DNA of 49,837 bases, the filler included, from Sphacelaria rigidula (Eukaryota), in the NCBI GenBank assembly GCA_964200075.2. It is 2 parts of 2 records of this genome, joined end to end, with 100 filler letters (N's around TTAATTAATTAA, not from the genome) between each part and the next. Parts side by side here need not be neighbours in the genome. Positions count along the whole stretch, not along the records: positions 1 to 24,878 come from CAXNAA020000187.1; 1 more part is not named here. One strand, written 5' to 3'. The position numbers and the translations under genes were made by a program. Each line of letters starts with the position of its first letter. Within the stretch, counting starts at the first letter, position 1. The notes below the pieces were generated by a model. It saw only the letters and a program-made list of their open reading frames with translations, was not told the origin of the DNA and ran no database searches. Below, piece by piece: positions 5,701 to 24,500 of this stretch.

Positions 5701-8700
5701 ACGTGATCAACCCTCAGATCAGCGCAAAGATTGCTCTTTCGAAAGAGAACGGCATCACACGCAGGGTGGAGTTCAAGTTTGAGATTCTCACGGCGGGCGA
5801 CGGAAACGGAGCAGACACTTGGTCTCCCAGATCGGAAGGTCTCAGACGACTTTGCTACAAGTATCGACAGGTGACCGTTATCAGCGGTGTTCCGCGTGTC
5901 ACAGAAGTCATTTTTGTGGGCAAATCTTCACCGACCTCACGATTTACACGGTATGAACCAAGTCTGGCACCCAATATGAGTTCGGGACGGCCGAAGACAT
6001 CGCGTCATCTCCGGCCTCAAGAAAGTGAATATGTTGGATTCATGAATTTATACGAATATCTTCGTCCACACAGGCTCGGATTACCACGAGAACCGCAGTC
6101 AAAACTTCGCCGAACTTGCCCATCAGCGCAACACTTTGTAGTGAGATAGGGAGACACGCAGGTAAAGGAAAAGTCCGCCGCCTCCTTCACGAGCTACCGA
6201 CAAGCGGTAGAAATCACGTTTCCCAAATCAGCAGGTCTCAGACGGCTTTGCTTCAAGTTTCGACATGTGACCGTTATCAGCGGTGTTCCGCGTGTCACAG
6301 AAGTCATTATTGTGGGCAAATCTTCACCGACCTCACTATTTTCACGTCTCGAATCAGCATCACGTCGACGTTATGCGGGACGGCCGAACATGTTGGGTTT
6401 CACGAATATCTTCACGGCAGTACACGTGGACTCGAAGAACCCAAAAACGTCGACGTTACGCAGGACGGCCGAGCATGTTCGGTTTCACCAACAGATCCAT
6501 GGCAATGCACATGGACTCGAAAAGCCACAAAAACTGCTGTCAACACGACGGTACGGAAACACGAAATAGGTTGACCCTGACGTAGATCTCAGATGAATGT
6601 GCTCAATCTCTCGATAAGTAACCATCATCTGCGGTATTCCGCGTCGCATAAGTCAAAATTGTACGCAAATCTCGCCCGACCTTAAACTTCTTCATATCTC
6701 GCTCCTCATTTGTCTCACAGATCAAGAAGCAGATATTACTGAATTCCCTCACTTGCACACGTATATACTGGTAATGGAATGGACGTTCCCAGGAATCCAG
6801 GTCCCGGACGAATTTGCGTCGATTCCGCCATTACACCCTGGCTCGAAGAAACACGGCAACCGCTGTCATAACGGCGTTCCCCATGAAACGAAATAGGTTG
6901 ACCATGAGGTAGATCTCAGATGAATATGCTCGAACTCTCGACATGTGCCCGTTATCAGCGGTATTCCGCGTCGCAGAAGTCAAAATTGTACGCAAATCTT
7001 CACTGACCTTATATCCTTCCATCAGATCTCGTAACTCACTGACCTCAAATACATAATATCAACTCAAAACATGACAATAAATCCTCCCTCTCACGCGTCA
7101 ATACCGAGGATGGAATGGACGTTTCCAGAGAATTCACGTCTCAGGGTGAATTTGCGTCGATTCACCCGTCACATCCTGGCTCGAAGAACCACAAAAATCG
7201 CATTCATAACAGCGTTCCCCAAAAAAGAAATAGGTTGACCATGAGGTAGATCTCAGATGAATGTGCTCAAACTCTCGACATGTGCCCGTTATCAGCGGTA
7301 TTCCGCGTCGCAGAAGTCAAAATTGTACGCAAATCTTCACTGACCTTGAATATTTTCATCGAATGTCGTAACTGATTGACCCCAAGTACATAATTTGAGG
7401 ACATGCAATAAATCTTCCCTCTTGCACACGTGAATACTGGGGATGAAATGGACGTTTCCGAGAATTTACGTATCGGATGAATTTGCATCCATCCCCCTAT
7501 TACACCCTAGCTTGAAGTACACCACGAAATCGCTGTCAGAACGGCGTTGCTTAAGAAACGAAATAGATTGATCGTGAGGTAGATCTCAGATGAATGTGCT
7601 CGAACTCTCGACATGTGTCCGTTATCAGCGGTATTCCGCGTCGCAGAAGACAAAATTGTACGCAAATCTTCACTGACCTTGAATGTACCATCTCATCTCG
7701 CAACTCATCAACCTTGAAATATAATGTGAACGTAAGACATGACAATGAATCTCCCCCTCCCACCCGTAGATACTCAAGGTAGAGATGAAAGGAACGTTCC
7801 GAGAGTACGGGTCTGGGGACGAATATCACGGATTCCCTCGTACACCCGGGCTCGAAGCGTCGCAGTAGTCAAACTTGTACGCCAATCTATCAACCTTGAA
7901 TCCTTTCATGAAATCCCTCACCAACTAGCGTCCAAATTGATCAAAAAGACATGACACGACGTTGCCCTCCTCGCACTTGTGAATATATCAGTTGGAGATG
8001 GAAGGAACGTTTCAACAGCGTAGGAAGGTCTCAACGGATTTGCATGGATTCCGGACCTTGTCCAGCGTCACACGAGTCATTCCACGAAAAATCTCGAGTG
8101 ATATGGAACCCCATCAAGCACGATTGCACGTCATAGATCGGAACAGGATTACCAACATGGGATGAAAAGATGGAAAATGGGTTCACGACACGGTTGGAAA
8201 AACAGTTTGTTATACCTGTCGTCGCGCTCTCCGTGCCCTCCGCGCCCTTCAGTCGATTGCGGTTTAATCGAACATACCAGTTGGTGAGTTGCTCAATGAA
8301 TCCCACCAACCGCGGCACAACTGTGTACAGACGGTATGCCTTCATTTCGTTGTGCACGAACTATGTCAGGAACAAGGACACGAACGAGAGAAAGGAGGGA
8401 AGGCGGGCCGGCGATGATCGAGGAACCATGTACTTCATGACATGAGATAATTTGGCGACGACCTTCACTCGTCACATTTTCACGATCATTACTTTCCATC
8501 CATCAAAGGCTGGACCGGATCAGTAGCAAAGCATGACCGCGGGGACTTCACACATATGGGCGCGTTCCGAACAAGACATTCCAAAACTGTCAAGTATCCA
8601 TGGCACTACGCACAGGGTTGCCTGTTGCAGTACACTGCAGCCCATGGTAACACGACATTCCTCCCTGCCCCACACATGAAACGCACATGATACAACATCG

Positions 8701-11700
8701 AATCATGGCTTGGCTACAGGATATTCCAAGTCAAGGTTGGACGAGGAAAACAAATCCAAGAGTGAACAAAGTCAAAACGGTCTGATGAATCACTACACAC
8801 CTGCACGAGACCCTGCAGCGCCGTGAGGATCCAAGCATCCATCACGTTCGTCGACGCCGCAGCAGCCTGAGGGTTTGGCTCGAACTTCTTGCCGCAAGTC
8901 ATTTCCAGCCGACGAGCCTTCCGAGAAAGTGCCACACACATGTGCGGAAAACAACGGTTTTCGAACTTGTTGAAAACTTCAAAGACGAGATTGGTCAAAA
9001 GATGCCTGGGGGATATTGGCGATTCAACTGGCAACACACGTGGTGTTCAGGGGCGAGACTGGAAACTAGGTCACGCCGTCGAACGGTCGCGAGAGGGTAG
9101 GAGTAAAATTGAAGCACAACTACATGGGCTGTACCGGTGGAGATGCGACAGTTGTCATCAGAACACGGGATCCTCTCAAGCCAACAAGTCTGGGTGGAGG
9201 GTACGAGGAGGACTTGAGTCTGCTGCATCGAACAACTGTCAGAAAAAAAAAAAATCACGCCGGACGTCATAGATGTAAATATGTATCCCTGTTGATAACT
9301 GTACACATCTGAAGCAGTGAGTCATTCACGGAACAAGCTTCCGGGAACCAAACAAACCGAGCCGTCGCCGTATCTCGGCACTCGAACGTTCGAGTCCAAA
9401 GTCGGAAGCCGAGTCAGGCAGCAAAACGTCACACCTGCTGCACGAAGAACCGGAAGGCATTGAACCATGGCAGCAAAACGTCTCGGACGGTCGCCTGCAC
9501 TCCCTCTTCCTTGAACTTCAGCGTCTCCGCACGGACCACAGGAGAGTTGATGAGGTACAGTCGGAGCGCGTCCGCGCCATGCGCGTTGATGACGGTCATG
9601 GGATCTAGATCACAAAAAACAGCGTAACAGGGAAAAGGAGGAAGAAAATACACGAGCCCCACAATATTCGAGTCAGGAAACTGGTCCGTAGTCCACCTAC
9701 CCATTTCGTTATCCACGCCATTTATAGCGAGGTCTTCAGATGGGTTGCAGAAAATTCAAGACTCCCCTCAACTTCAAGGTAAAACTGTTCCAACTGCCAC
9801 GAAAGCCACCTCACGATAGGCTTTCCTATAACATCGATCAAGGAAAGAATTGCATGGGTATTTGAAATATCATCAGGATGTGTCATCACGCCGGGAACGA
9901 CGGGTGCCATTTTCACCTGGATAGTTTTTCAGCCTCTTGCTCATCTTCCGGCCATCTGCAGCAAGCACGAGGCCGTTGACGATGAGGTTCTTGTACGCGG
10001 GTTTGTCGAACAGTGCAGCGGCCAGCACTGTCAAGGTGTAGAACCACCCTCTCGTCTGCACAGGCGTGTCATCATTCACGTCACCGGACACGGGAAAGAT
10101 AAATCTCAACGAATTTTGACAACACCACCACACGGAGAGGCAGAACAAGCAGGTAAATCGAAACTGGCATCAATTTGTTGGGTATGAGTTTAGGCCACCT
10201 CATCAACACGTTCACACGCTTTCACGCACGAACGAATTATCATACGACAGAGGCTAACCTCGATCAACCGACCAACATGTTCAAGCGGTGCTGCCGCGGA
10301 GTATTGTGGCTCTGGTCGCCTCCGTACACACCTGGTCCAGACCCTCGGCCACGAAGTCCGCCGGGAAGTTCCGCTCAAATTTATCCTTGTTCTCGAAGGG
10401 GTAATGCAACTGCGCATACGGCATGGATCCAGACTCGAACCAGCAGTCGAACACCTGCAGCACCAAACCGCGCGACATATGCGAGAGAACCAAAAGAAAC
10501 AGGTCAGGCAAAGCAGTCGATAAAACGATTTCAACCTGGGCTTTCCTGCCGACATCGTGCGTTTGTCAACGATGAAAAAGCGCAGGTCATCTCAGCTCGG
10601 AGACATCCCAGGGATTAATCTTCAGGTTCGACCTCGTCAGGAAGAAATACTAGACTGCAGAGAGTCAGCTGATAAGCTCCCATCATGAAGGTTCGGATCC
10701 TCACCTCATCGACTCTCTTCAGGTCCCCTTTGCCTTCCTTGGAAGGAATCGTAATGTGGTCCACGGACTCCCGGTGAAGATCCGTCACCTGCAGGACACA
10801 CCGGAAACGTCTACAATTTAAGATGGGTGTAGAGCTTTGTTTTCGTGCTTACAACTGGCCCTTTCAACATCTCAGCGCATCGTTGTGCATGTGGTATGGT
10901 CAAAAGACCAGCGAATAGCTGGCTACACCCCGTTCATACTGTCAAACAAGGGTGCTGACGAGCAAAACTGCGGCAGAAAAATGGTGCACGAAGATATCAC
11001 TCGCGACGACGTTCTTGACAATTCCTGCTCGCCAGGACAATGTGACACATCGGGAAAAAAATCGTTTGAAGCAAAAACATCGACTGTTCCACGAAGGTTT
11101 TGCCCAATGTACGCGAGAAATGCCAGGACGTGGCAGAAATCGCACCCAGGGTCACACTCGATTAGAGAATCATTTCTGATTCGCTGCCCCATTCTTACAC
11201 AAGATCCAAAGTTAGATAAGCTCTGCAGAGTTTCATCTTCCTGTGTATTTCAGGTTTAGAAGGTTTCCTGACCTCCACACCAGAGAGTTCCTTGAGCTCA
11301 GCGATAGATCCCACGGCAACCATCTCCTCGCCATCCTCGCTGACCCACATGGGCATCGGTGTGCCCCAGAACCGGTTGCGAGACACAGCCCAATCCTTTG
11401 CACCTTCCAGCCTGCACATCATGAAGGGGAACATGTCGAAACAACAGGTAACAGCGCGAAAGTATATGGTTCTGTGTAAGGGCATGTTAAGTATTTTGTT
11501 AGGCAGCGTGACTCCATGTAGCTACGTCACCATGATGAAAGGCAGCAGATACCCCACGTTTCGCCGGACAAACGAAAATCATCAACAACCTTTGAACTTG
11601 TGCTCGCGAAAAGAGAAAATATCATGAATTCACGGAGGGGATTCGCATGATGACGGGAAAAAATTTCTCACCAGTTTTGGAATCGTTTCTCCTTCACGAA

Positions 11701-14700
11701 AGACGGGACCCAGTACGAGACTTCGTTGCACGCGAGGAGTCTGTCCCGGATGGACTCGACGGCCACGAACCACGATGGCACAGCCTTGTAGATCAGTGGT
11801 GTGTCGGATCGCCAGCAGAACGGGTAGCTGTCGTCACATGAGAATGAGGTGAGGAATGGCAGTTCACATGCATGTGATGCGATGTGAGATCAAGAACTGT
11901 CTCTACCGCGAGGTTTGAGCCGAGTGACTAGTATCTTAGGAAGCATGTTGCACAAGCGGTCTCGATACCCGGTCACGAAGAGGATGCATTCACCACGGGC
12001 ACCAAGACCCGACCATGATGTGATGGGTAAAGTCTCGGAACGAAAAGGGTCGTCGCTTTTCCCAAATACAGCACAAAGCAAGGTAGACTGGGTGTGTGAT
12101 GCTCCGAAAATACTCCTTTCTGCGTTCACAGCATTACTGAAGTAAAACCAGGTGTGCGATGCTCCGAAAACCCGAGCGCCAGAGGTGATTGTTGCGCCGA
12201 GTTCCATAACGTCACTTGTTTTATTTCGCTCCCGAGGCATAACATCAAAAATGTTGGGGGTTGAGCACGATTCATGAGGTCAATAGATCGTTCCCCCCCC
12301 CGCCCGAGCTGGAATATGAGTCGGAAAAATAACTCCGTACACTCCGCGGAAAACCAGCGCGTCTCCCATGCTAGAGATGATGTGAAATCAGCATGCACAC
12401 AAACGCTGGCAGAGCAACGCACCATCATTCGCAGTCGCCGGACCAAGCACTACCCCTGTGTGGCTCGCATCCAGATCCTCATAAATCAAAGCTCAAAAGA
12501 CTCTCGCACAACCACTCGCGTATCCTGACACGCACCTGTGCTTGTAGTTGTCCTTGGAGACCAGCCTGCCATTGCTCTTGATCTCCTCGCACAGAGCCTT
12601 GTCTGCCTCCTTCACATACTGCCCCGCGTACTTGCCCACCTCTGACGTGAAAAGCCTTCACTCGATTTGTCACACATCGTCACAATAAACTGCGGAGGTC
12701 AATGTTTCCATCAAATTTCATGAGGGTATCGAGACGACACCCACAGCACGCGGTAGTCAACCTGCACCGCATATTCCAGCTTTCAAGACTTCATGTTTAC
12801 ACAAACTGGGGGGGGGGTCCAACGTTTCACTATTTAGCGTGTGCTCACCCGTTCGAGTCCACTGGGCACGGGATATCTTCTCCCTTATCGATGACGCCAT
12901 GCGCCAGGCAGACCCGGTAATCATCCTCTCCGAACGCCGGTGCCTTGAGGGGTAAGAGAGCGAACGGATGACAGGTACAGGCAAGTATCATTGATCGTCT
13001 CGTTCGCGGATCGAATGACATGAACCATTAAACATGTTAGCTTAGTTTCTTGACGAGATGTGGAACGAATTTTCATCCAGTCACACGAGGTATCACGAGT
13101 GTTGACAATTTGGGAAAATGGCATCCTTTTATCCGGAGTTCCCTCAACATATGACATACTGGCTATGCCGGTACCAACATTCCGCACAGCAAGATCGTGG
13201 AAAAGACTCCGCTTTGATTTCGTACGAAGAACGCCCTGAGCAAATTAACCGCAGTGCAGACTGATGATATGTCGCGCTTTAGCTGACCCTTCCAGGGGTC
13301 CAACCACGGTCGCATAGTAGACGTACCTCAGAAAAGCAATACTGAAACCCCCCCTGATAAGAGCCGCTCAGCATGTTAATCCTATTATACGAGGGCAACA
13401 CGGGGAACAGTCAGAGAACCTACAGCCATTGGCTCTCATGATGAAGAATCAAGCCGTTTCCTTTGTGAAAGGTTTTCATCATCCTGTTCCCTGTCCCAGA
13501 GTTGTTTTCACCCAGCATCGCACGAATGGTTCAACTTCAACGTCCACAAATGCAGCGCATGGTGAACGGCACAGATGTCAAAAAACGGTCTGCCGTCCCT
13601 TCATGTACGGCGCCCGTGTCACAAGTCTACCAGTAGATCGGCGAATATGTTCAACTGCGGACGAACAGTTATTTGTGCGGGCTCTCGACTGCTGTATGGA
13701 AATTGGGGGACCACGTGAGCAGGAGGCCGAACTCATCCTCGTGTGCTCAACAGTGATCAAAATATGTTGAGGATAGCTCGATGATGCTTCGCCAAACTTG
13801 GGGCACAACGTTAGGCACATCCGAAACAGGAAGTCGCCCTTCGGCTGAGAGGATCCAGTATCTTACAGATATCAATAACGGCAACGGCAACGACGACAGC
13901 CAGAAGGATAAAGACACAAGCGAGAACGACGTTTACCTGGTGAACGATGCCCGTACCGCTGTCATTCGTCACGTAGCTGTCGGAACACACCACAAAAGAC
14001 GTGGCACGGTTGGCGTAGAAGTCGAACATCGGTTCGTACGCCATACCCACCATCGTCGAACCCTTGACCGTCTCCAGTTCTGGAACGTGGGCGCACGTAT
14101 GAAACGGTTCGGGAGCAATTAATCATCAGCGTTGTGATCATCTGATGGCGAATGTGACAAGAAAACGTCAACCGCACGAATGAACCAACAAATATGCGGC
14201 AGTCTACTCCATCTCACTCCCGAAAGTCACCAAATTAGGTTCGTCCTCCGGAGTATCAGTCTCCGATGCAGACGATTGTGTCGGGCACTCATCATGATGG
14301 GTAACAGACATGCGTGACACAATCGGTCCCAGAAGGACACCGACTGCGGACTCCGACGTTATAATGCACAGCTAAGGGGTCCACCGAATTCACCACTCAG
14401 AGCAAATTCCGATGTGCCCCAGGTTTGATGTTGTGACTGCTGGACCTGGGCAACGACGGGCTGTGCAGGCCCAAGTTCAAGATGAGCGAGTTTGATCAAG
14501 CATCCTCGCAAGCGGTATCCGGCCACGTTGTAAAATGGGAGTCCGCCTCGTCAACGTTTGGCAGGCTAGATTAACCACCAAAAATTTGGGGATAAAACCT
14601 TCTCAGGAATACGAACACAGCTAATGAGTGAAAAAAGAACAGCGCTCAGACATCCAAGGAAGATTGGTGCCCCAGGCTCAAACACAGCCCGGCTGGGCGT

Positions 14701-17700
14701 GTGAGCGTCGGCGAGATCACTGCGAATGATTTATGGGAAATATACCGTCATCATTGCGCTAATTCTTGTTTTTTTCATCACCCCGCGAATTCGCCCGGCG
14801 TCACTTGTCCCTGAAAACATGTTCGAACGGCAGCATGAGATATCGGAGCAAGACCAGAACCAGAGCGTCACGTGACACGGTTAAATCCAGTGAACCACAG
14901 AGTGGTCAGGTTTGCGCGACAGAAACGCTGGGATATCCAAAACGTTCGATGCCCAACGCTCGAACATTTACCGCTGTGCGGTGCGTGTGGGTGTCGGCAC
15001 GGTCATTTGCGAATGATTGACTGAGGATGGCATACGCGTGAGACCACAATCGTGGTTGATGGTGTAGCACCGTCCTAGATAGAATTAGGTTCCTGTTCTA
15101 GGGGAGCATGAACACACCCCACCGCTTCCAACCCCTCGATCGAGAGGTGGTCGATGGCAATCCTGTGCGCGTTGAAGGCTGGTTATATCATCCTTCCAGT
15201 CCAGGTGTTGGGACTTGAAAGTACTCTTTCCGCAACGCTACTGGAACGCCACCCTGGGATAGGAATGCGTCTCACGTCTCACGCTCCTCACCTTCCATAA
15301 GATCCGCCTTCATCGCGGGCTTGTACTTCTTCGTGTTCATTACTGGGTATAGCTGGGACAAGCGCTCGGCACCGCAGTAGTATACCTTCCCGCTCTTTTT
15401 ATCCCTGAAATGTGGTGCGCAAACAGTGTCCAGTCAAACGTCAACAGTCGCGAGCCGTGAAGCAGACACACGGGGAATCGATGTCAGTCGTCTCAAACTA
15501 GTGCATCTCCCGTGGAAAATGAGCGTATCCCGACTTTTACTTGTGAAAACCACTCAGATGGCAATTGCGTTACTTGTAACCCGAGAGTGAAGAGCAGCTT
15601 GCGTTTCCATCGGCTCGGTACCATCGAGAGTTCAGGACGTCGAAAGACACGGCGCTCAAATACTACTCGGCGCTCAATTACTACACACAGCGGCATCGCC
15701 AAAGCGGCGTATCGCAGGAGATAGTACCGAGACAAGGAGGGAAGGCACGCATGTAAAACTCTTGGGCTAACGTAGGGGGAATAGTCCACATTAGTAAAAG
15801 TCGTACGCAGTCAAAATGATGGCCTTGGGCTCTCAATTGTAGTGCGACTGCGTGTTGATGTCGACCGTGGAGGCGGCATCTGTTCAATTTCAGGGGTATT
15901 TTCGACGGCCCTCCGGTCGTCGATATATCCGGTCAATATCATCATCCAACCCACAGGCCGAGTCGAGAGGTCTCAGCCACTATTGTTGGGTCCATAATGT
16001 TCCTCCCCGACAAACATCTTCTCCTGATGACACCTCTCGAGAGTTGAGTTCTTACAGCAAGACTATAAATTGGATTCGTATGTCGAGCGTGGTTCACAAA
16101 TCCGAGATATGGCGATGGAAGAAGAGCTGATAGAAGCTCTTCCTCTCACCGCCCTCAGGCTTGCTTGTTATGGCGCCCTCTGTTTCACCAGTTGCTTTTG
16201 GCCGCCTTGTGCGCCGCAAACGCCATTTCTCCGGGGCTGAGCACACGGCCGCCCCGGAGCTTTACGGGCGAGGCAGTGACTCTAATAGGCGGCCGAGTAC
16301 CGTTTCCCATGTTGGTTCCAACAGACCTCAAAGACGTATCCCGCCGTCGCATGAAGATCATATGAGGTGAACATAGGGAGAGAAAACTCTCACTGCATCA
16401 TTACATCAGCTCAGAGCTTGTTCACAAGCCATGGCGCTGTAATCTCGAACTATGGCGCCCTGCCAACTGGTCTCGGATGGCATGGCTGTCATATTGTTCA
16501 AGTGTTGACTAGATCCGGGAAGAACTTCCCAGAAAGAGCCCATCCCTTCGATTTCGTGCTCTTTTCAAAAAAGCTGTCAGATACACTCCCCATCATCAGA
16601 TACTCCATCATCAGATATGTATATGTACGCATGTTCCGTTCACACTAAGCACTCAGATTGTATGTCAAAAGTCTGAAACCCCCAAGCCCGATATCGAGCA
16701 GTGCGGGGATCCTTGACGTATATGACCTCAGCGTTCAATCTCACCTGAGCTTGATGTAGTCAAACTCTGCGTTGACACAAAGAGCCAGGTTAGAGGGTAA
16801 GGTCCACGGCGTTGTTGTCCAAGCCAACAAGCTCGTCTGCAAGCGTTGACGAGGAAAGCAAGGTGCGAAGAAAGGGCAAAGTCAAACACCAATGCTCGAG
16901 ATGAGCGCTAGTTGAAGGAAATGCCCATCGATTCTCAACGTTGTCGACGTGGAAGGGAGGTCGACCGCGCACGGCAGACGAGGGCGGTTCGAGATTACAT
17001 GAAAGAATTTGTTCGGGTAGTTTTCACCATCGAGGTACAGTCCGGTTCCGGCTACGAAGGACGGCTTTTCTGCAGTCCCTCGAGAAGATGGCCGCAAAAG
17101 GTTGCCATAGATTTATCTTCTATTCAGTATACAACACCTGAACGGCTTGTTTTCTCGCGTACATACGGGGGTACCGAATCCGACAACAGTATTTTTCCCG
17201 ACGTGGCAACACCATGGCTTTGCGTTTACCACCGACTGGTGCACCATGCTGCAGATATCGGGCGTGGTTTACACCCCTGAAATTAGACATGAAGGGCGAG
17301 TTAAGAAACCTCGAAGTCCCTCCACGTCGTCAGGTGTGCTTGTCATCGCGCTCGCTGTTCCAACAGTTTATCTCGGCCGCCTTGTGCGCCGCAAACGCCA
17401 TTTCCTCGAGGGTAAGCACACAGCAACCCCCGAGGCTTTACGGGCGAGGCAGTGACTCTAATAGGCGGCCAACCGTCAGGGTTAAACCCCAACAGGGATC
17501 TCGGGTTTTGTTCAAGGTTGTAAAACTAAACTGGAACGAAGAGTTTCAGACAAATTTGTTGTGACTGAACTGTGTCAAATCGTGACGTCGAGGTGTGACG
17601 GTACGGATGGTGGCTACCGTCACGGGGGAAGAGCTGCCGTGTTCTTCATTATAATGAAACAATGACCCAGAAGCAGATCAAACGGGGAACCCTGCGAGCA

Positions 17701-20700
17701 GTCTGTGTACCCAGTACCGACGTGAAAATTTGTGATGGTAATCAAGGATGGAAATTTCCACGAACTGTCGAAACGAAAGTTGGTGATTTCTAATTTGAAC
17801 GTCTTGCTCACACACGTGCCTTCCCGGTCTTCTTCAAAACGTACCTCCGGGTCGTCTTTGAGGGGAAAGGACACAACCACCGCGGGATCCGACACGTCCT
17901 TGTAGTTCAACCCTGCCTCGAAGTTACTGAGCGGTGTGGCGCAGGCCGTCGAGAAAGGCATGACCTTGTATCCGCGGTAGACGAGACCCTTCTCGTGCAG
18001 GGTCTTAAAAACCCACCACACGCTTTCCATAAACCAAGGGTCCTGTTTCCGGAAGCAAATCAAGCACATAATAATGAGACAAATTCAATATTTCCATATT
18101 TGACGGGTACAAGCGTATGTGAAGCTAGGTCAATTCATCGCCTCCTGAAAACGACACCCGGAAGAATTGGAAATCCTCCGGATCCTTGTCGTAGCCACCT
18201 CACCATGGTTTTGTAGTCGTTTTGGAAGTCGATCCACCGTCCCAAACGCTTGATCGTAACTTCCCACTCCTTCGAGTAGCGCGTCACGATGCTACGGCAG
18301 TGCTGGTTGTAGGTCTTGATTCCCATCTCAAGGACCTGGTCGCGGTGTTTGATGTTGAGCGCCTGATCGATCTCGTATTCCACCGGCAGACCGTGACAAT
18401 CCCAACCGGCTCGTCGAGAGACGTAGTGACCCGACTGGTGGGCGTATCGCGTCACGGCATCCTTGATGGTGCCTGGACATACAAGGGTTACCAACATTAC
18501 CCAACAGTTAGCTGCAGTTTCCCGGCCCATGCTGGAACTCAACGCCCTCGCATTCCTTTGGTTGATACGTCGAAAGTAGTACATCACGTACGCACGTCAT
18601 GAGTGACTGCACACATTTCGGAATAAAATGCGAATATCAACTGAAACCGCGGTGCTCGGAGAGGACGAGCCGCAGCCTCACAACAACGAGCGGAAAAAAG
18701 AGGCACACGCGCACTTCCGTGCATTCCGCAGTGGGGGGATTTGGGAGTATCACAATAGATGTGCTCCTGCGCGGTCTACATCTCTACAACACTGCTTGGT
18801 GTGAGGCTAGTAGGTTCACCCCCTGCGGAAAGAGCGGCGATCTGGTTCGCAGAAGTCACTCAAACGATTTCACATTTGCATGGCTACACTGGCTCGTTCA
18901 TATCCGACGGTCACTGCTCAAGTGAAGGTGATGCCAGCTCGGCATGGAGTCGACGTTGAGCATTCCACAGCCCACACAAAATGCATGCTCTCACGCACTC
19001 GCAGGTTTTACATTTAGTATTTCAAAACCACATCTATCGCTGACACACTGGCATCAACACCACGCAGGGTGATGTAAGATTGAACGGTTGGCCGACACTG
19101 GCGGATGACAGCAGATCTTCTCTGATTATCCTGGGCACGAAGCTGAGGGGCCACAGTTATGTTCGGTTTCACACGGAAGAATCTTACCGTGGGCGGCAAA
19201 AAAATGTGTGCCTTCCAGGACGAAGCGGACATGAGACGATAGCTCAGTTCAAACTTCCAGCCTGCTTAGAATGCGCACTGTGCGGAGACAACTTGAACGA
19301 ACACAGGCGGGATCGAGTTCCCGCAGCTACTGCGGCCCGTGTATACCATGACAGAAAACATACGTTTATTCGGACACCACGGCAGACTTTTACGCTCATC
19401 AGCCGTCATGGTACGGGGCCATTCCCGAGATATCAAGATTATTAAGGGACATTCGTGAACTGTTCATCCTAGACTAGTGTGCCATCGCCTCGGGGCAGCG
19501 CCAGCCTTGGGAATATCAAGAGGCGGGTCTGCACGGTAAGCAAAGGCATCCGCGTACCTGCCACCCGTCCCACCCGAAAATGGGCGGGACGAGGGAGGCG
19601 TCCACGGTCTTTCATGTTCCTGCGTTTTCAGAGTTGCGTTCACGGCGACGCCGGCTCCGTCCAAACAAAGTTTGACGAAGACAGCGGGCTAACGCAGCCT
19701 CAAGTTTCTGACAGGGTTTCGTTGAAACAATCATGGTACGCTCCCACGTGAATACACGCAGAAAGAGAACAAGACGATGCGGGTATGGCAGCTCCTGGAC
19801 GATCAAGGACTACAAACATTTCTCAGCATCCGTACACCCCTCCACCTAGATGACACCGTTTTTTTGCACGTTTTACGGATCATTAGCGATCCGTTCATAA
19901 AAGTAGTGCTGATCAGAAATTAAATGAGACGGATGATATGTAACAAGGTAATCTTCGGGGTTAAACATGTCTAGGTGACACCATCTCACCGGCGAGAATG
20001 TGCCCGTAATGGGGCAGCCCTGTGGCGAACGGTGGCCCATCGTAGAAGGTGAACTCCGGCCGTCCTTCACTGAGCCTCAAGGTCTCTTTAAACGTGCCAT
20101 TTTCCTCCCACGACGCCTTGTTTTTCATCGATCACGTGAAGAGAGTCCCAGTCATTTCTCAGAACACAAGAATTTTGTGGAGTTGATATATCGGGCTGCG
20201 ATGTGTCTACGGTTGATTTCACTTGGTTCGAGTGTAGACAGGCCAAAGCCGCATCTTCAGTGGGGCTGACAACGCCGTGGGCTCATGGGGAGCGCAGAAA
20301 GCAATTTCGTTCAAATCGGCGTCAACGCCGCACTTCGCCTGGGGAATCTCGTGCGTCTCCCTTGCCCGAGAGTACTTGGTACGCCTCCGGTTGGGGTTGG
20401 GGTTAAAGTCAACGATAGCTGTCAAATGTGTCAACCACGAAAGGACTGCAGCGGCGACGCCGGTTCCACCACCTCCATGAGTGAGTCAAAACGACAGGGC
20501 AATCAAGATCGAAATGCGGGAAAATCAGTCAGATTGCGAAACGAAAAGCGGACCCACCACGGACGAACTGGGGCTTCCATGTGCTGTTTATGCGTCTGGA
20601 GCAACAGCAAACACCTGATAAAACTGTTAGCTGATGTACGTGACGTTGGATGCGGTGAGATCGGTCAAGAAGGATAGCGAAAGGCGACAGAAACACCCAC

Positions 20701-21575
20701 TCGGACCACGAATAACTCATCCGAATATTTCACAGACCAAGCTGCGAGGCATTGATATCCGAGTTCCAGGTGGTATCGGTGCCACTTGTTCCACATACGT
20801 CATGGAGTTGAGCGGAGGGTGTAAGTAATTTTCAAGAGCGACCAAAGTGTGCCATCGCCTCGGGGCAGCGCCAGCCTTGTGATCGGTAATAGAGGCAAGT
20901 CTGCACGGTAAGCGAAGGCTTCCGCGTACCTGCCGCCCGTCCCGCTCGGTACGAGGGGGACGGGGGAGGCGTCCACGGGTTTTCATATTCCTGCGTTTTC
21001 AGAGTTGCATTCACGGCGACGCCGGCTTCGTTCAAACGGAGTTAGACACCGCCAGCGGGCTAATGCAGCCTCAAGTTTCCAACAGGTGTTTGCGAATTTT
21101 GCTACCCTCACATTCTACGAATTTTCGTCCGCGTAAAAAATCAACTCCACTGTACTTGATGGTGCGGGGGTATTGCAGTACACGCCTTGAAGACGTCACA
21201 AGGGTGCACGACTGACCCGACTGCCGGCACAGATGAGATAGACGACATGCGTAGGCAGAAACCGGGACAAACCTGATGGTTAACGTGAGACCCGTTCAAG
21301 TTTTCAGAGGCAGTAATGGAGGAAGAAACCGTTTATTAGAATGCAGGACAGCTGGCAGCAAGCGACTCTCATTGCACGTTGCCAAACCTTTCGATCCGAC
21401 AGAACTAGAGGCAACAGAACCCTCCCTTGTGCGCTCGAAAATATTTGCTCCGTTACGGACAAATGCGGGGAAATAGTGTTGCTACGGGACTGACAGCCAA
21501 TCTCCATTCTTGCCGACTCACCGCAATTTTCGCCTCTTCTGCTGAAAAGTTGATCGCACCCTCGATGTCCTCCAT
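2552..21575 (-). CDS. IARS1: Cytosolic isoleucine--tRNA ligase (class I aaRS), spliced gene of 24 coding exons, ~1169 aa
   Basis: Joined exons give [20 protein letters not shown] (HIGH motif), [21 protein letters not shown] and [16 protein letters not shown] (editing domain), [24 protein letters not shown] and [12 protein letters not shown] (KMSKS motif). All introns are GT-AG, phases match, total 3510 nt, stop TGA at 2552-2554. An alternative in-frame ATG at 21593 adds MKGIAF. Confidence 0.96.
3095..3313 (-). CDS. IARS1: IleRS exon 23
   Basis: [10 protein letters not shown]...RPCVSINK; cag|, |GTGAGC. Confidence 0.85.
3439..3528 (-). CDS. IARS1: IleRS exon 22
   Basis: [30 protein letters not shown]; cag|, |GTGAGA. 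Confidence 0.93.
4012..4161 (-). CDS. IARS1: IleRS exon 21
   Basis: [11 protein letters not shown]...[10 protein letters not shown]; cag|, |GTGACC. Confidence 0.9.
4346..4495 (-). CDS. IARS1: IleRS exon 20
   Basis: [27 protein letters not shown]...; cag|, |GTAACC. Confidence 0.91.
4781..4976 (-). CDS. IARS1: IleRS exon 19
   Basis: VDERTE...[16 protein letters not shown]...ELNAWE; cag|, |GTGAGG. Confidence 0.93.
5129..5324 (-). CDS. IARS1: IleRS exon 18
   Basis: LYCMYEVL...[10 protein letters not shown]...SVHML; cag|, |GTAATA. Confidence 0.94.
5558..8060. repeat. Intronic tandem array, ~330-bp period, about 7 diverged units plus a partial unit
   Basis: Core ...CCGTTATCAGCGGT.TTCCGCGT...AGAAGTCA...GCAAATCTTCA..GACCT recurs at ~5560, 5840, 6235, 6563, 6890, 7228, 7560 and partially at 7855. 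Confidence 0.9.
8216..8360 (-). CDS. IARS1: IleRS exon 17
   Basis: [18 protein letters not shown]...[15 protein letters not shown]; tag|, |GTATAA. Confidence 0.94.
8801..8917 (-). CDS. IARS1: IleRS exon 16
   Basis: ARRLE...[18 protein letters not shown]; aag|, |GTGTGT. Confidence 0.9.
9435..9604 (-). CDS. IARS1: IleRS exon 15
   Basis: [26 protein letters not shown]...FFVQQ; tag|, |GTGTGA. Confidence 0.95.
9917..10055 (-). CDS. IARS1: IleRS exon 14 (KMSKR motif)
   Basis: TRGWFYTL...[20 protein letters not shown]; cag|, |GTGAAA. Confidence 0.95.
10332..10454 (-). CDS. IARS1: IleRS exon 13
   Basis: [13 protein letters not shown]...[11 protein letters not shown]; cag|, |GTGTGT. Confidence 0.95.
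10705..10788 (-). CDS. IARS1: IleRS exon 12
   Basis: [28 protein letters not shown]; cag|, |GTGAGG. Confidence 0.94.
11273..11411 (-). CDS. IARS1: IleRS exon 11
   Basis: [22 protein letters not shown]...; cag|, |GTCAGG. Confidence 0.95.
11672..11827 (-). CDS. IARS1: IleRS exon 10
   Basis: [21 protein letters not shown]...KEKRFQNW; cag|, |GTGAGA. Confidence 0.95.
12536..12655 (-). CDS. IARS1: IleRS exon 9
   Basis: [19 protein letters not shown]...NYKHS; aag|, |GTGCGT. Confidence 0.92.
12849..12943 (-). CDS. IARS1: IleRS exon 8
   Basis: [12 protein letters not shown]...CPVDSNG; aag|, |GTGAGC. Confidence 0.93.
13403..13491 (-). ncRNA. Box C/D snoRNA, target unassigned, in IleRS intron 7
   Basis: 8-bp terminal stem GGGAACAG/CUGUUCCC directly flanks box C AUGAUGA and box D CUGA. 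Possible internal D' UUGA. 89 nt, sense to the host. Confidence 0.72.
13937..14079 (-). CDS. IARS1: IleRS exon 7
   Basis: [18 protein letters not shown]...[15 protein letters not shown]; cag|, |GTAAAC. Confidence 0.93.
14641..14760 (-). ncRNA. U14: U14 box C/D snoRNA in IleRS intron 6
   Basis: Terminal stem AGCGC/GCGCU, box C AUGAUGA, domain A CAUUCGCAGU (antisense to 18S ACUGCGAAUG), domain B UUCCUUGGAUGU directly before box D CUGA. These are the diagnostic U14 elements. Sense to the host gene. Confidence 0.93.
15292..15404 (-). CDS. IARS1: IleRS exon 6
   Basis: [20 protein letters not shown]...; cag|, |GTGAGG; phases fit both neighbours. Confidence 0.88.
16078..16294 (-). ncRNA. Long H/ACA snoRNA family 1, copy in intron 5
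   Basis: Hairpin closed by GGCCGCCU/AGGCGGCC, H box AAAGCA, second hairpin, ACA+3 nt. Paralog at 17253-17470 has compensatory stem changes. Confidence 0.75.
16745..16836 (-). CDS. IARS1: IleRS exon 5
   Basis: [22 protein letters not shown]; cag|, |GTGAGA. Confidence 0.95.
17253..17470 (-). ncRNA. Long H/ACA snoRNA family 1, copy in intron 4
   Basis: Same 5' hairpin and pocket, H box AGAUAA, 3' end GUAAACCACGCCCG-AUA-NNN (AUA variant of the ACA box). Confidence 0.72.
17845..18042 (-). CDS. IARS1: IleRS exon 4
   Basis: [13 protein letters not shown]...TPLSNFEA...DDPE; cag|, |GTACGT. Confidence 0.95.
18204..18472 (-). CDS. IARS1: IleRS exon 3
   Basis: [10 protein letters not shown]...[10 protein letters not shown]...NDYKTM; cag|, |GTGAGG. 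Confidence 0.95.
19475..19705 (-). ncRNA. Long three-hairpin H/ACA snoRNA family 2, copy in intron 2
   Basis: 5' hairpin, H box ACAUGA, internal hairpin, 3' hairpin with pocket ACCGU/CCCG 14 nt from ACA+3. Paralog at 20845-21076. Confidence 0.75.
19990..20116 (-). CDS. IARS1: IleRS exon 2 (HYGH motif)
   Basis: ASWEENGTF...[21 protein letters not shown]; aag| acceptor, |GTGAGA donor. Confidence 0.93.
20845..21076 (-). ncRNA. Long three-hairpin H/ACA snoRNA family 2, copy in intron 1
   Basis: Paralog of 19475-19705. H box AUAUGA, identical 3' pocket and ACA box, differences concentrated in apical stems and loops. Confidence 0.75.
21522..21575 (-). CDS. IARS1: IleRS exon 1 ([18 protein letters not shown])
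   Basis: ATG ... GCG|GTGAGT strong donor. Joins in frame to exon 2 (ASWEE) and resembles the F.EE..I..W N-terminus of IleRS. Confidence 0.8.
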
Positions 21576-24500
21576 GAATGCAATCCCCTTCATTTCACAT
21601 CAATATTCCGGGGCGGGAGGAAGAGGGAGGGAGGGGGGGGGGGGTATAACGACGCGGCGGTCAAGACGGGGTACACATGAGAACGACAGACACTTCAACT
21701 TCCGACGAAAATGGGGATATGATGACTAGGAGCTCATTAAAGAGGGGCCTTGCGCATGCATGCTCCCCTCTCGAGTGTGATGTCTGGTTCAACCTCAACA
21801 GGGGTCGCCAACTGATCATCATTAGGTCCACGACGTGGAGAATGGTTGTAGGAAGTACAGTGCCCATGACGGTCAGATCCCAGTGCCTATTCCAAGAGAT
21901 CTTGTATGTGCGGCATACGAAGGGATTCCGCGTTCGTTGCACCCCTCCGTAGTCACGCGTCAGATGAGAGACTCGGGCGGGGCTTGATTTCCAGTCCCTC
22001 AAGAGTGAGCCGCGACAGTTGTAGTGCAATTATGGAAACGAGGATATCGTATAGCACAACAGTGAGATGAGAAGGATACGGTGAGGCGAACACGGCTACG
22101 ATGAATTTCGACCGCAACAAGGGTGTTCCGCACCGTGGTTAATACGACAGAACTGTCAACAATGGGCTGGGCTGTACGGTAGAAGTTTGAAGTTTTGTTT
22201 CCGTGAAAATCTCTGGCTCCATCAAATCGAGTTGGAAACTCGGTGTACGCGCAGTGGGGTGGAGGTATTTTGAAGATTTTTTATTTCATTCATCTCATGC
22301 CTCACTCTCGTGCTGGAGGAAGGCGGCGGGCACACTTTCTTCTCCATACACGGGGCATTTTCCGTCAGGGCCTTTTCACTTGCGGCTCAGGGAGGATGGT
22401 CATAGAAACGACACGGAATCTTTCGACTTCGAAAGTTTTTTTTCCAACCAACTGCCATGTCTACCGTACTGGATGGAGTGGACAAGATCATTTCTCACGT
22501 GGGGGTTGGCAGGGTGCAGATTTACACTTCGTTGATGGACGTACCGACGGACGGTACAGTGAACGGCACAGTGGTGGCGACGTACAGGCGGCGAGATGGA
22601 GTTGTTTTTGTAGTAAAATCTTGGTGTTAGGAGGGCACATCAGCCGCCGATGCATGCATCGGTTGACGATCACATGCATCTCCCGATCAAGGATGTAGTG
22701 ATGAATCATGAACATCCACAGACGGGTCTGAGATACGCAACGTTTAGAACCGGTCTTCTTGGCACCCTGAGGCCGAAGGCAAGCGTGTGGACGTCCGCCG
22801 TTCAAGAGAAAAAAACACGGTACGCACAACTTGTACGCAATTTTCTTTTCACGTTTTGTCGGTAGGGTCGTGACGAAAGATGCGGCTAGGGTTTATGCTT
22901 GAATCATTTCCCCGAGTTGCGCGACACAGCTATTCACACCAACGCATCGCAAAAACGAGTACGTACTGCACGCCAACGTGCCGCACACACAAGGGCTAGT
23001 GGTGGTTGTGTTGCATTCGCAGTAGAGGGAAAAAACGAATAATTCGTGTTCGAAAGACTGGACACGATGACAAGACAAACATACGAATCGATCCTTGACC
23101 GACTCGACACGATTTTCGCCGGTGCACTATACCTTTCCTGCATGCTCTTCTTCCGCCATGTTGTAGCCCGTGATCCAATTCTCACCCACCACTTGCGATG
23201 CAGCACGGACTACCCAGCCGCTCGTGTCCAGTATGTACAGTGCGCAGACGGGGGTGGGCTTGTGCGTGAACAACAGACTAAATGCAGTTGATAAGACGCA
23301 TTGTAAAAGTCGTTCTTTAAATCCATTCGCATTTCTGTCATTATTTATGATTACTTAATTTTCCTTAGGATTTTCCCACCACGGAGGTTTGACACTCGCA
23401 GGTGCCTTTTCTTTCTAGAACTCCTCTCTTGGCAAATACTGGAGAGCGTAACTCATTAGATGGCGTTACTCTGATGTGATGTATACAGTGTTTGATTGGC
23501 ACCTTTAACCTTCCTTTCGATGACAGAATAATGGATACTGCAGGGTGGTGTGAACGAAACTCTACGGCTATCCTTTTGGATCTTGATTTTATCCAAAGCA
23601 ATTGCACTTCACTACATCGACCATAATCTACTCTGACTAAGAGCTTCAAGCCTATCGTAGAGTTTATTCTTTTTCCTGGCATAAATTACTGCACGCGATT
23701 TGATTGGACTTACGGACACTGCGGCCAACGGGACTACAATAGCCTGTAGTCAAATGTTATGAGGAAAATCAAGAAGAAGTGAGCCAGCCACAAGCGTCCA
23801 TCTCGACTAGCAGTTGGCTCTAGCTGTTCCAACATGGCTTCTTGGGTGGACGAGTCGCCGGAGGGAATCTCCGCCAACATTTCCATCACTAGTACCGATA
23901 AGTTCACCGTTCTAGATGCAGCTTCCCAGTTGCAAGCTACCAGTATAACCGACACCGGCGCAACAGTAGCGGATCGCGCTATGCCAGCAGCCAAAAGCAC
24001 TGCGGATAAGGGTAAGGGCAAGGGCAAATCCAAGGCTTCAGGCGCGACTGGAGGAGGTGGTGCTGCTAAATCACTTGCGGATGCTGCACCGGGGAAAAAA
24101 GGCAAGTTGTTGCACTGCCAAGCACCGGTACTGTGAACTGTAAATGTGCTGCTGCTGAAAAATTGCGCGAACGTTTTTAGGAACACTTTAGTTGTTTCTC
24201 CCTGAAGTGTAGGACTTGTGGTTGCCAGCAGCACGGCAACGCCGGTAGATACACCTGTCTGTGCGGAGCGCATGTGGGTACGGGCAGACGGATAACAGTG
24301 GTCATGCTAAACGAACGCGTTAAGCACCACAAGAGCGTAGTAGTTGAGCAAATCAAGAAGCAGCGAAGCTCAACCAATCGACACCTCAATCTTGAGCTGC
24401 TGTTGGCCGTGCTGCTATTAAATATTTACCGCAGCGCACAGCACAATCCATGGCGAGGATGATCCTGTAACTCCCCCTGTCTGCACTGTGGTTTTTTTAT

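What the first reader, a model, noticed from the sequence alone, without database searches (positions are those of the whole stretch)
13403..21076. IleRS gene is a multi-snoRNA host: six structured RNAs, one per intron, in introns 1, 2, 4, 5, 6 and 7
Seen in sequence: U14 (intron 6), a C/D RNA with an 8-bp terminal stem (intron 7), and two duplicated H/ACA-type RNAs (introns 1+2 and 4+5). All are sense to the host and all lie in the long 5' introns. Established: intronic snoRNAs are typically hosted by translation and ribosome-biogenesis genes; vertebrate U14 sits in HSPA8 and RPS13 introns. Inference: this aminoacyl-tRNA synthetase transcript couples tRNA charging with rRNA processing, a host arrangement I do not know to be described in this lineage. 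None of it appears in the ORF track.
Basis: partly seen in the sequence, partly recalled or inferred. Interest (0 to 1): 0.85.

Follow-up and report, generated by a model that had tools for sequence, protein, structure and literature searches.

The report
Six snoRNA genes in IleRS introns
A brown-alga gene for isoleucyl-tRNA synthetase carries six small nucleolar RNA genes, one in each of six introns; this is the ordinary way many eukaryotes package such RNAs, seen here in a lineage where it has hardly been described.

Summary
RNA contigs with seven GT-AG joints define a minus-strand cytosolic IleRS gene. Each of six introns carries one sense-strand structured unit.

- U14 (14760-14641): Rfam 50.4 bits, E 1.7e-8, below the curated 64. 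Both of its 18S-complementary domains pair with real 18S sequences.
- C/D RNA (13491-13403): C box, D box and an 8-bp terminal stem. None of 200 shuffles gave such a stem.
- Two A copies (~241 nt) and two B copies (~218 nt): hairpin, ANANNA hinge, hairpin(s), then ACA or AUA 3 nt before homology ends. Substitutions avoid the stems or preserve pairing. B has 10 compensatory pairs of 57; A has 2 of 71.

Not shown: mature RNAs, conservation in orthologous introns, genome-wide copy number, or targets other than U14's. A and B match no Rfam family.

Verdict: a real multi-snoRNA host gene of the classical one-snoRNA-per-intron type, so a new member of a known kind. Interest is modest (0.3), not 0.85.

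The parts
23133..23159 (-). Coding part of IleRS exon 1 (ATG at 23159-23157; GT donor at 23132-23131).
   Evidence: The loose end of the RNA contigs at 21590 reads, reverse-complemented, as the window sequence at 23159-23133.
21522..21587 (-). IleRS exon 2
   Evidence: Joint 20115/21521 (cut +1) and the loose end at 21590. The spliced frame is open.
20845..21086 (-). H/ACA-type RNA A, copy 1, in intron 2 (20117-21521). H box ATATGA at 20988-20983; ACA at 20850-20848.
   Evidence: RNA contig X2 record 8 covers 20821-21133.
19990..20116 (-). IleRS exon 3
   Evidence: Joints
19475..19715 (-). H/ACA-type RNA A, copy 2, in intron 3 (18473-19989). H box ACATGA at 19617-19612; ACA at 19480-19478.
   Evidence: RNA contig X3 record 13 (229 nt, depth 8.4) spans 19480-19708, nested in the unit.
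18204..18472 (-). IleRS exon 4 (PF00133, 104 bits)
17845..18042 (-). IleRS exon 5. Intron 4 (18043-18203, 161 nt) holds no RNA unit.
17253..17470 (-). H/ACA-type RNA B, copy 1, in intron 5 (16837-17844). H box AGATAA at 17373-17368; AUA at 17258-17256.
16745..16836 (-). IleRS exon 6
16078..16294 (-). H/ACA-type RNA B, copy 2, in intron 6 (15405-16744). H box AAAGCA at 16198-16193; ACA at 16083-16081.
15292..15404 (-). IleRS exon 7
14641..14760 (-). U14 (SNORD14) box C/D snoRNA in intron 7 (14080-15291)
   Evidence: Rfam RF00016: 50.4 bits, E 1.7e-8. 5-bp terminal stem. Domains A and B pair with 18S.
13937..14079 (-). IleRS exon 8
13403..13491 (-). Box C/D snoRNA candidate (89 nt; AUGAUGA, CUGA, 8-bp terminal stem) in intron 8 (12944-13936). 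Target unknown.

Best explanation
The minus-strand gene is the cytosolic isoleucyl-tRNA synthetase of a brown alga, and it doubles as a snoRNA host gene. Six of its first eight introns each carry one snoRNA gene in the sense orientation:
- two paralogous ~241-nt H/ACA-type RNAs (A) in introns 2 and 3;
- two paralogous ~218-nt H/ACA-type RNAs (B) in introns 5 and 6;
- U14 in intron 7;
- an 89-nt box C/D RNA in intron 8.

Inferred mechanism, from established knowledge of intronic snoRNAs and not shown here: RNA polymerase II transcribes the host. The C/D proteins (Snu13, Nop56, Nop58, fibrillarin) or the H/ACA proteins (Cbf5, Nop10, Nhp2, Gar1) assemble on the boxes in the nascent intron. After splicing and debranching, exonucleases trim the intron down to the protected snoRNP.

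U14 then pairs with 18S rRNA through its two domains. Those pairings are shown here. Its roles in 18S processing and in methylation at the fifth pair upstream of box D are inferred from the family.

A and B would guide pseudouridylation through their pockets, and the C/D RNA would guide a 2'-O-methylation. Their substrates are not identified.

The A/A and B/B pairs most likely arose by duplication of a snoRNA into the neighbouring intron. They were then kept by selection while the surrounding intron sequence diverged beyond recognition.
For: Gene and introns:
- There are 7 of 7 GT-AG joints in RNA contigs of 3 runs from one study.
- The spliced frame is open.
- Exons 4 and 5 match PF00133.
- The closest named proteins are Ectocarpus and Pylaiella IleRS at 92% identity.

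U14:
- Rfam gives E 1.7e-8 over the full model.
- Domain B pairs over 14 bp (13 Watson-Crick) with 18S in 5 rDNA loci. Domain A pairs over 11 bp in 7 loci.

C/D candidate:
- It is one of only 2 C/D architectures in the window, both in these introns. None of 200 shuffles gave a stem of 8 or more.
- 8 of 9 weak Rfam hits are C/D families and 7 of 9 hits lie on the minus strand.

A and B:
- Homology has sharp edges, and no other copy exists in the 49.8 kb.
- All 57 (B) and 71 (A) predicted pairs are kept in both copies. There are 10 (B) and 2 (A) double-sided changes, against 0-2 (B) and 0-1 (A) when the 3' partners are slid.
- Differences avoid the stems. For A, 8 of 142 paired columns differ against 31 of 101 unpaired columns (p 2e-7). 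For B, 25 of 114 against 42 of 104 (p 0.003).
- The H boxes keep A at positions 1, 3 and 6 while the N positions differ between copies: AGATAA versus AAAGCA, and ATATGA versus ACATGA.
- ACA or AUA sits 3 nt before the point where homology ends.
- In B the boxes lie about 13 and 16 columns from the base of the upper stem. In A the H box lies 14 columns from it.
- The B 3' hairpins fold on their own with z -3.2 and -5.0.
- The minus strand folds better than the plus strand for B4, B5 and A2.
- 5 of the 9 most stable 120-nt windows, out of 488 across the gene, fall in A or B.

Weak hint of expression: one RNA contig (229 nt, depth 8.4) lies nested inside A copy 2.
Against: - No mature RNA is shown. 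The RNA data are contigs, which cannot give ends or levels.
- U14 scores below Rfam's curated cut-off (50.4 against 64).
- A and B match no Rfam family, even in a 241-276-nt search at E up to 10.
- For A, the shuffle control is not significant (128 of 500) and only 2 pairs are compensatory.
- All structures were predicted from the same two sequences on which they are scored.
- No significant rRNA target was found for the C/D RNA, A or B against heterologous 18S and LSU rDNA.
- The C/D RNA has no clear C' or D' boxes.
- A has an extra internal hairpin, B has an unusually long conserved hinge, and B copy 1 ends in AUA rather than ACA.
- Orthologous introns and genome-wide copy number could not be examined.
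Confidence: 0.75

Rival explanations
1. A and B are copies of a short mobile or repetitive element (SINE-, MITE- or snoRNA-retrogene-like) that landed in neighbouring introns. They are not functional snoRNAs. Only U14, and perhaps the C/D RNA, are real.
For: - The units have sharp edges inside otherwise unrelated introns.
- They match no Rfam family.
- No target was found.
- Genome-wide copy number is untested, because no genome is held.
Against: - There are only two copies of each in 49.8 kb. Both are sense, and both lie in adjacent introns of one gene.
- The repeat finder reported no inverted repeat bounding either unit. No A-rich tail is visible at the edges in the sequence.
- Substitutions avoid the stems or compensate.
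- The box positions are kept while the N positions vary.
- The B 3' hairpin has diverged in sequence but not in structure. That pattern indicates selection on the RNA rather than neutral decay of a repeat.
Confidence: 0.08
2. A and/or B are structured intronic RNAs of another class. Possibilities are Cajal-body (sca) RNAs acting on snRNAs, an H/ACA-domain RNA with a non-guide role like U17/snR30, or hairpin precursors of small RNAs. In this reading they are not rRNA pseudouridylation guides.
For: - No significant rRNA complementarity was found.
- The sizes (218-241 nt) and the extra hairpin are atypical.
- Brown-alga miRNA loci are mostly intronic and sense (PMC4513859, passages read).
- There is a weak miRNA-model hit on the B 3' hairpin (E 5).
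Against: - The B 3' hairpin differs in sequence between the copies, which is unlike a conserved mature miRNA.
- The rRNA used was heterologous, so a missing target is weak evidence.
- By eye I saw no CAB-like motif (recalled as UGAG) shared by the apical loops in the alignments.
Confidence: 0.12
3. The C/D candidate at 13403-13491 is a chance box-and-stem combination, and the locus hosts fewer snoRNAs than six.
For: - No rRNA duplex of 11 bp or more with proper geometry was found. The best match is a 10-nt stretch to LSU that is not next to a D' box.
- Its fold is not unusually stable (z -1.52).
- Only generic, weak Rfam hits were found.
Against: - None of 200 shuffles of the window gave an 8-bp stem flanking C and D boxes. 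The mean was 0.125 for a stem of 4 or more.
- It lies sense, in the next intron after U14.
- C/D RNAs are not expected to have low folding energy.
Confidence: 0.05

Closest known systems
U14 / SNORD14 (Rfam RF00016), intron-encoded in vertebrate HSPA8 and RPS13 (hosts recalled, not from a call)
   Same: It has C and D boxes and a terminal stem. It has two 18S-complementary domains, both verified here against real 18S. It is intronic and sense to a highly expressed housekeeping host.
   Different: - The host is IleRS.
- Its variable middle region lowers the Rfam score to 50.4, below the cut-off of 64.
- It lies about 560 nt from the 3' splice site, not the ~70-80 nt recalled for vertebrate intronic C/D RNAs.
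Animal-type protein-coding multi-snoRNA host genes (one snoRNA per intron, several occupied introns, translation-related hosts; review PMC6619189, passages read)
   Same: There is one unit per intron, with six occupied introns. All units are sense, and the host encodes a translation component.
   Different: - The lineage is a brown alga.
- An aminoacyl-tRNA synthetase serves as host. Two searches for IleRS or tRNA synthetases as snoRNA hosts listed 10 papers. I opened two of them, and in both the synthetase term occurs only in the reference list. The rest I judged from titles only.
- Neighbouring introns carry paralogous copies.
Canonical box H/ACA snoRNAs (hairpin-H-hairpin-ACA)
   Same: - A and B have an ANANNA hinge box.
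- They have ACA or AUA 3 nt from the inferred end.
- They have internal pockets roughly 13-16 nt upstream of the boxes.
- The stems covary while the pockets are invariant between paralogues.
   Different: - They are larger than the usual ~130-150 nt (size recalled).
- A has an extra hairpin between the H box and the 3' hairpin. This resembles yeast snR30 in layout only, and that comparison is recalled.
- B has a ~20-nt conserved hinge with a mini-hairpin.
- They match no Rfam family and no target was identified.
Ectocarpus intronic miRNA loci (PMC4513859)
   Same: They are sense-strand structured RNAs in the introns of brown-alga protein-coding genes.
   Different: The units here carry snoRNA boxes and multi-hairpin architecture. 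They are not single ~100-nt hairpins with a conserved 21-nt arm.

Membership tests
SNORD14 / U14 (RF00016) | Match to the family covariance model | tested here: inconclusive
   50.4 bits, E 1.7e-8, model positions 1-111 of 111. This is below the curated gathering score of 64, and a gathering-threshold scan of the window lists nothing.
SNORD14 / U14 (RF00016) | Box C, box D and a terminal stem | tested here: met
   AUGAUGA, CUGA and a 5-bp stem AGCGC/GCGCU (alignment).
SNORD14 / U14 (RF00016) | Two stretches complementary to 18S rRNA (domains A and B), with domain B abutting box D | tested here: met
   TCTTCCTTGGATGT pairs with ACATCCAAGGAAGG (14 bp) in 5 rDNA loci. TCATTCGCAGT pairs with ACTGCGAATGG (11 bp) in 7 loci.
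Box C/D snoRNA (13403-13491) | RUGAUGA near the 5' end, CUGA near the 3' end, and a flanking terminal stem | tested here: met
   8-bp Watson-Crick stem; none of 200 shuffles reached that.
Box C/D snoRNA (13403-13491) | An antisense element of 10-21 nt ending next to box D or D' | tested here: inconclusive
   No duplex of 11 bp or more with proper geometry was found against heterologous 18S and LSU. The best is a 10-nt perfect match to LSU CTTTGTGAAA that does not abut a D' box. The alga's own rRNA was not available.
Box H/ACA snoRNA (A and B) | Hairpin-hinge-hairpin-tail fold | tested here: met
   The RNAalifold consensus keeps 71 of 71 (A) and 57 of 57 (B) pairs in both copies. A has one extra hairpin.
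Box H/ACA snoRNA (A and B) | H box ANANNA in the hinge | tested here: met
   ATATGA and ACATGA in A; AGATAA and AAAGCA in B. Positions 1, 3 and 6 are kept, while N positions vary (alignments).
Box H/ACA snoRNA (A and B) | ACA (ANA) three nucleotides from the 3' end | tested here: inconclusive
   ACA (A1, A2, B5) or AUA (B4) sits 3 nt before the point where paralogue homology stops. The real 3' ends are not mapped.
Box H/ACA snoRNA (A and B) | Pocket whose top lies about 14-16 nt upstream of the H or ACA box, complementary to a substrate around a U | tested here: inconclusive
   The geometry is roughly met: 14 columns from the H box in A, and about 16 and 13 columns in B. Substrate pairing is not significant. 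In the best case, the B 5' pocket against LSU TTGAGC-TT-GACTCTAGT, 12 of 60 shuffled pockets score as well.
Intronic snoRNA host gene | The units lie within spliced introns, sense to the host | tested here: met
   7 of 7 GT-AG joints in RNA contigs bracket the units.
Intronic snoRNA host gene | Stable mature snoRNAs are released from the introns | not testable with these tools
   Only contigs of RNA runs were available. One 229-nt contig nested in A copy 2 is a weak hint.

The most novel reading that the evidence does not exclude
A and B would be two brown-alga-specific H/ACA families with unusual, enlarged architectures: a three-hairpin A, and a B with a long conserved hinge. Each would be kept as two paralogues in neighbouring introns. 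Together with U14 they would make the IleRS gene a conserved, co-regulated ribosome-biogenesis module across brown algae. An alternative transcription start inside intron 2, seen in run X2, would allow copy A1 to be switched off independently of the enzyme and the other five RNAs.
Probability: 0.2. Interest if true: 0.5.

Novelty: new member of a known kind. Interest (0 to 1): 0.3.

Why it matters
The organisation of snoRNA genes differs between lineages. From recall, they are independent genes in yeast and polycistronic clusters in plants. The review read describes one per intron in animals.

For brown algae, an independent multicellular lineage with intron-rich genes, the papers I found give only a computational snoRNA prediction for Ectocarpus (PMC4513859). 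None describes host genes.

This locus is a clean, splice-verified example of the animal-like arrangement. It also yields two candidate H/ACA families that are absent from Rfam. It is useful for annotation and as seed material for covariance models, but it changes no concept.

Tried and rejected
- RNA runs: no RNA holder was listed as such by the look-up of sequencing runs. Runs X1-X3 proved to be RNA only through their spliced contigs.
- Uncovered parts: in X1-X3 the bin holding U14 has no contig cover. In the low-depth run X8 several bins holding A copies have none. These uncovered parts are recorded here only and are not used as evidence.
- Orthologous introns: the metagenome scan with the exon-4 protein gave 80 loci at 81% identity or less. 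68 of 80 matched as one uninterrupted stretch, meaning cDNA or intron-poor organisms. None of the 80 holds the U14 motif pair. Ten intron-bearing loci gave 0 Rfam hits at gathering threshold. No brown-alga DNA was obtained, so conservation stays untested.
- Exact-motif scans: A against genome contigs and B against viral contigs both gave 0 hits.
- Whole genome: none is held, so copy number stays untested.
- Targets: eukaryotic rDNA was found as contamination in prokaryote assemblies and used for guide searches. U14 worked as a positive control. The C/D RNA and the A and B pockets gave nothing beyond shuffled controls.
- U17/snR30-like m1/m2 motifs (recalled) were looked for by eye in A and B. 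Only partial resemblances in the wrong topology were seen, and Rfam found nothing.
- Other stable spots: 8600-8719 is not significant with dinucleotide shuffles (z -0.17). The hairpin at 14240-14355 is only noted.
- The genome search with the LSU family failed twice on the server side.
- Supplementary tables of PMC4513859, which may list predicted Ectocarpus snoRNA loci, could not be seen.
Full report
**Gene model**

The ORF listing shows IleRS-like peptides on the minus strand. Three runs of one study hold spliced contigs. They give seven joints, all with CT..AC ends on the plus strand, which is GT..AG on the minus strand. A loose end at 21590, once reverse-complemented, equals the window sequence at 23159-23133. 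That stretch starts with ATG and is followed by GT.

The exons, after applying the tool's 'cut +1' where it was flagged, are:

| Exon | Coordinates |
|---|---|
| 1 (coding part) | 23159-23133 |
| 2 | 21587-21522 |
| 3 | 20116-19990 |
| 4 | 18472-18204 |
| 5 | 18042-17845 |
| 6 | 16836-16745 |
| 7 | 15404-15292 |
| 8 | 14079-13937 |
| 9 | from 12943 downwards |

Joining exons 2-8 gives an open frame. Exons 4 and 5 match PF00133 at 104 and 56 bits. A full-length IleRS ORF from a metagenome contig maps further exons down to about 4800. The closest named proteins to exon 4 are IleRS of Ectocarpus and Pylaiella at 92% identity, then other ochrophytes at 84% or less.

**U14**

Rfam at its gathering threshold finds nothing in the window. 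An E-value scan of 12500-22000 finds SNORD14 at 14642-14759(-), with 50.4 bits and E 1.7e-8 over the whole model. The curated cut-off is 64. The loss of score is in the variable middle region.

I obtained real eukaryotic rDNA as contamination in prokaryote assemblies. Against it, the stretch next to box D pairs over 14 bp with 18S in 5 loci. The 5' domain pairs over 11 bp in 7 loci. With C and D boxes and a 5-bp terminal stem, this is U14.

**Second C/D RNA**

The unit at 13403-13491(-) reads: an 8-nt stem strand, G, AUGAUGA, 61 nt, CUGA, then the complementary 8 nt. A simple scanner for RTGATGA, then 45-160 nt, then CTGA with a flanking Watson-Crick stem finds only this unit and U14 on both strands of the whole window. 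Two hundred block shuffles gave a mean of 0.125 hits with a stem of 4 or more, and none with a stem of 8 or more.

A 126-nt Rfam scan gives nine weak hits, the best at 23.4 bits. Eight are C/D families and seven lie on the minus strand. All reflect the generic architecture only.

No rRNA duplex of 11 bp or more with correct geometry was found. A 10-nt perfect match to LSU is about what chance gives, and it does not abut a D' box. It is a well-formed C/D RNA with an unknown target.

**Units A and B: extent**

The repeat finder and blastn show exactly two copies of each unit, at 84% identity, with unrelated flanks. For B, similarity resumes after a divergent stretch. The full units are 17470-17253 and 16294-16078.

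**Units A and B: structure of B**

- A 96-nt 5' hairpin with an invariant internal loop and a covarying apical stem.
- A hinge that starts with AGATAA in one copy and AAAGCA in the other. A is kept at positions 1, 3 and 6, and all three N positions differ.
- A 3' hairpin whose upper part has changed in sequence but not in pairing. Each copy folds alone with z -3.2 and -5.0.
- AUA or ACA, followed by 3 nt, after which homology stops.
- All 57 consensus pairs are kept in both copies. 10 pairs show double-sided changes, against 0-2 when the 3' partners are slid by 1-3 columns.

**Units A and B: structure of A**

- A 5' hairpin with a 9+7-nt pocket whose top lies 14 columns from the H box (ATATGA or ACATGA).
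- Two further hairpins, then ACA, followed by 3 nt, where homology stops.
- All 71 pairs are kept, with 2 compensatory and 4 one-sided (to G-U) changes. The shuffle control is not significant (128 of 500).

**Units A and B: other evidence**

- Differences avoid the paired columns. For A they fall in 8 of 142 paired columns against 31 of 101 unpaired columns (p 2e-7). For B they fall in 25 of 114 against 42 of 104 (p 0.003).
- The minus strand folds better than the plus strand for B4, B5 and A2. For A1 the two strands are equal.
- Several kept pairs are G-U, which would be A-C on the other strand.
- In a scan of 488 windows of 120 nt across the gene, 5 of the 9 lowest z-scores lie in A or B.
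- No Rfam family matches either unit.

Caveat: the structures were derived from the same two sequences on which they are scored.

**Expression**

Exons have contig depths of 178-531 and intronic contigs about 2-8. One contig (X3 record 13, 229 nt, depth 8.4) spans 19480-19708, nested inside A copy 2 (19715-19475). It is the deepest of the intronic pieces listed, but 49 further pieces were not shown. Contigs cannot define ends or levels, so this is only a hint.

**Targets**

With 18S and LSU from the contaminant rDNA, a bipartite pocket search gave no hit above shuffled pockets. For the six pocket variants tested, between 4 and 58 of 60 shuffled pockets scored at least as high as the real one.

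The best lead is the B 5' pocket on LSU TTGAGC-TT-GACTCTAGT: 9 bp on one side and 5 bp with one mismatch on the other. 12 of 60 shuffles scored as well. The 10-nt C/D match lies about 15 nt downstream in the same LSU stretch. The alga's own rRNA is needed to settle this.

**Conservation**

The single metagenome scan returned 80 IleRS loci. All were at 81% identity or less to exon 4. 68 of them were uninterrupted across the region that carries introns here. None held U14, and 10 intron-bearing loci gave no Rfam hit. No brown-alga genomic DNA was reachable.

**Comparison and verdict**

One snoRNA per intron, with several occupied introns in a translation-related host, is the arrangement described for mammals in the review PMC6619189 (passages read). 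The same review notes that snoRNAs can move between hosts with suitable expression.

For Ectocarpus I found only a computational snoRNA prediction with ACAseeker and CDseeker, without host-gene analysis (PMC4513859, passages read). Searches for snoRNAs in brown algae, Phaeophyceae or stramenopiles and for IleRS or tRNA synthetases as hosts listed no paper whose title describes this locus type. Of the two I opened from the host searches, both cite a tRNA synthetase only in the reference list.

The finding is real, and it is a tidy annotation result. It adds U14, one orphan C/D RNA and two probable new H/ACA families. As biology it is a new member of a known kind.

Noticed in passing
window 19989-20544 (-): In run X2 the main RNA contig (depth 178) runs unspliced from 20544 through exon 3, and the exon 2-exon 3 joint is absent from that run. 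X1 and X3 do show the joint. An in-frame ATG lies at 20128-20126. This suggests an alternative start inside intron 2, downstream of A copy 1. Such a transcript would make an N-terminally different IleRS without producing that snoRNA.
   Followed up: partly
window 14240-14355 (-), intron 7: A long (~110-nt), nearly perfect hairpin lies downstream of U14 (MFE -49.5, z -2.27, 4 of 200 shuffles as stable). It contains an internal AUGAUGA...CUGA only ~30 nt apart. It has no snoRNA architecture. It might be a small-RNA precursor or nothing.
   Followed up: partly
window 16575-16618 (-), intron 6: A tandemly repeated CUGAUGAUGG motif is followed by CUGA. It gives a weak archaeal sR2 hit (16.3 bits, E 6). 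It has no terminal stem and is too short, so it is probably not a snoRNA.
   Followed up: no
window 24879-24922, 24935-24978, 36460-36461: Runs of N (assembly gaps or masked stretches) lie just upstream of the IleRS gene.
   Followed up: no
L081-L142 and L143-L145 (prokaryote assemblies): At least 62 contigs filed under bacterial isolates or MAGs carry eukaryotic LSU rDNA. Five of the longer ones end about 2,180-2,220 nt into the LSU. One 8,971-nt contig looks like a circularly permuted whole rDNA unit. This is eukaryotic contamination in those assemblies.
   Followed up: partly
window 14880-14999 (-), intron 7: A second unusually stable 120-nt window lies upstream of U14 (z -4.1 with mononucleotide shuffles). 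I saw no boxes in it.
   Followed up: no
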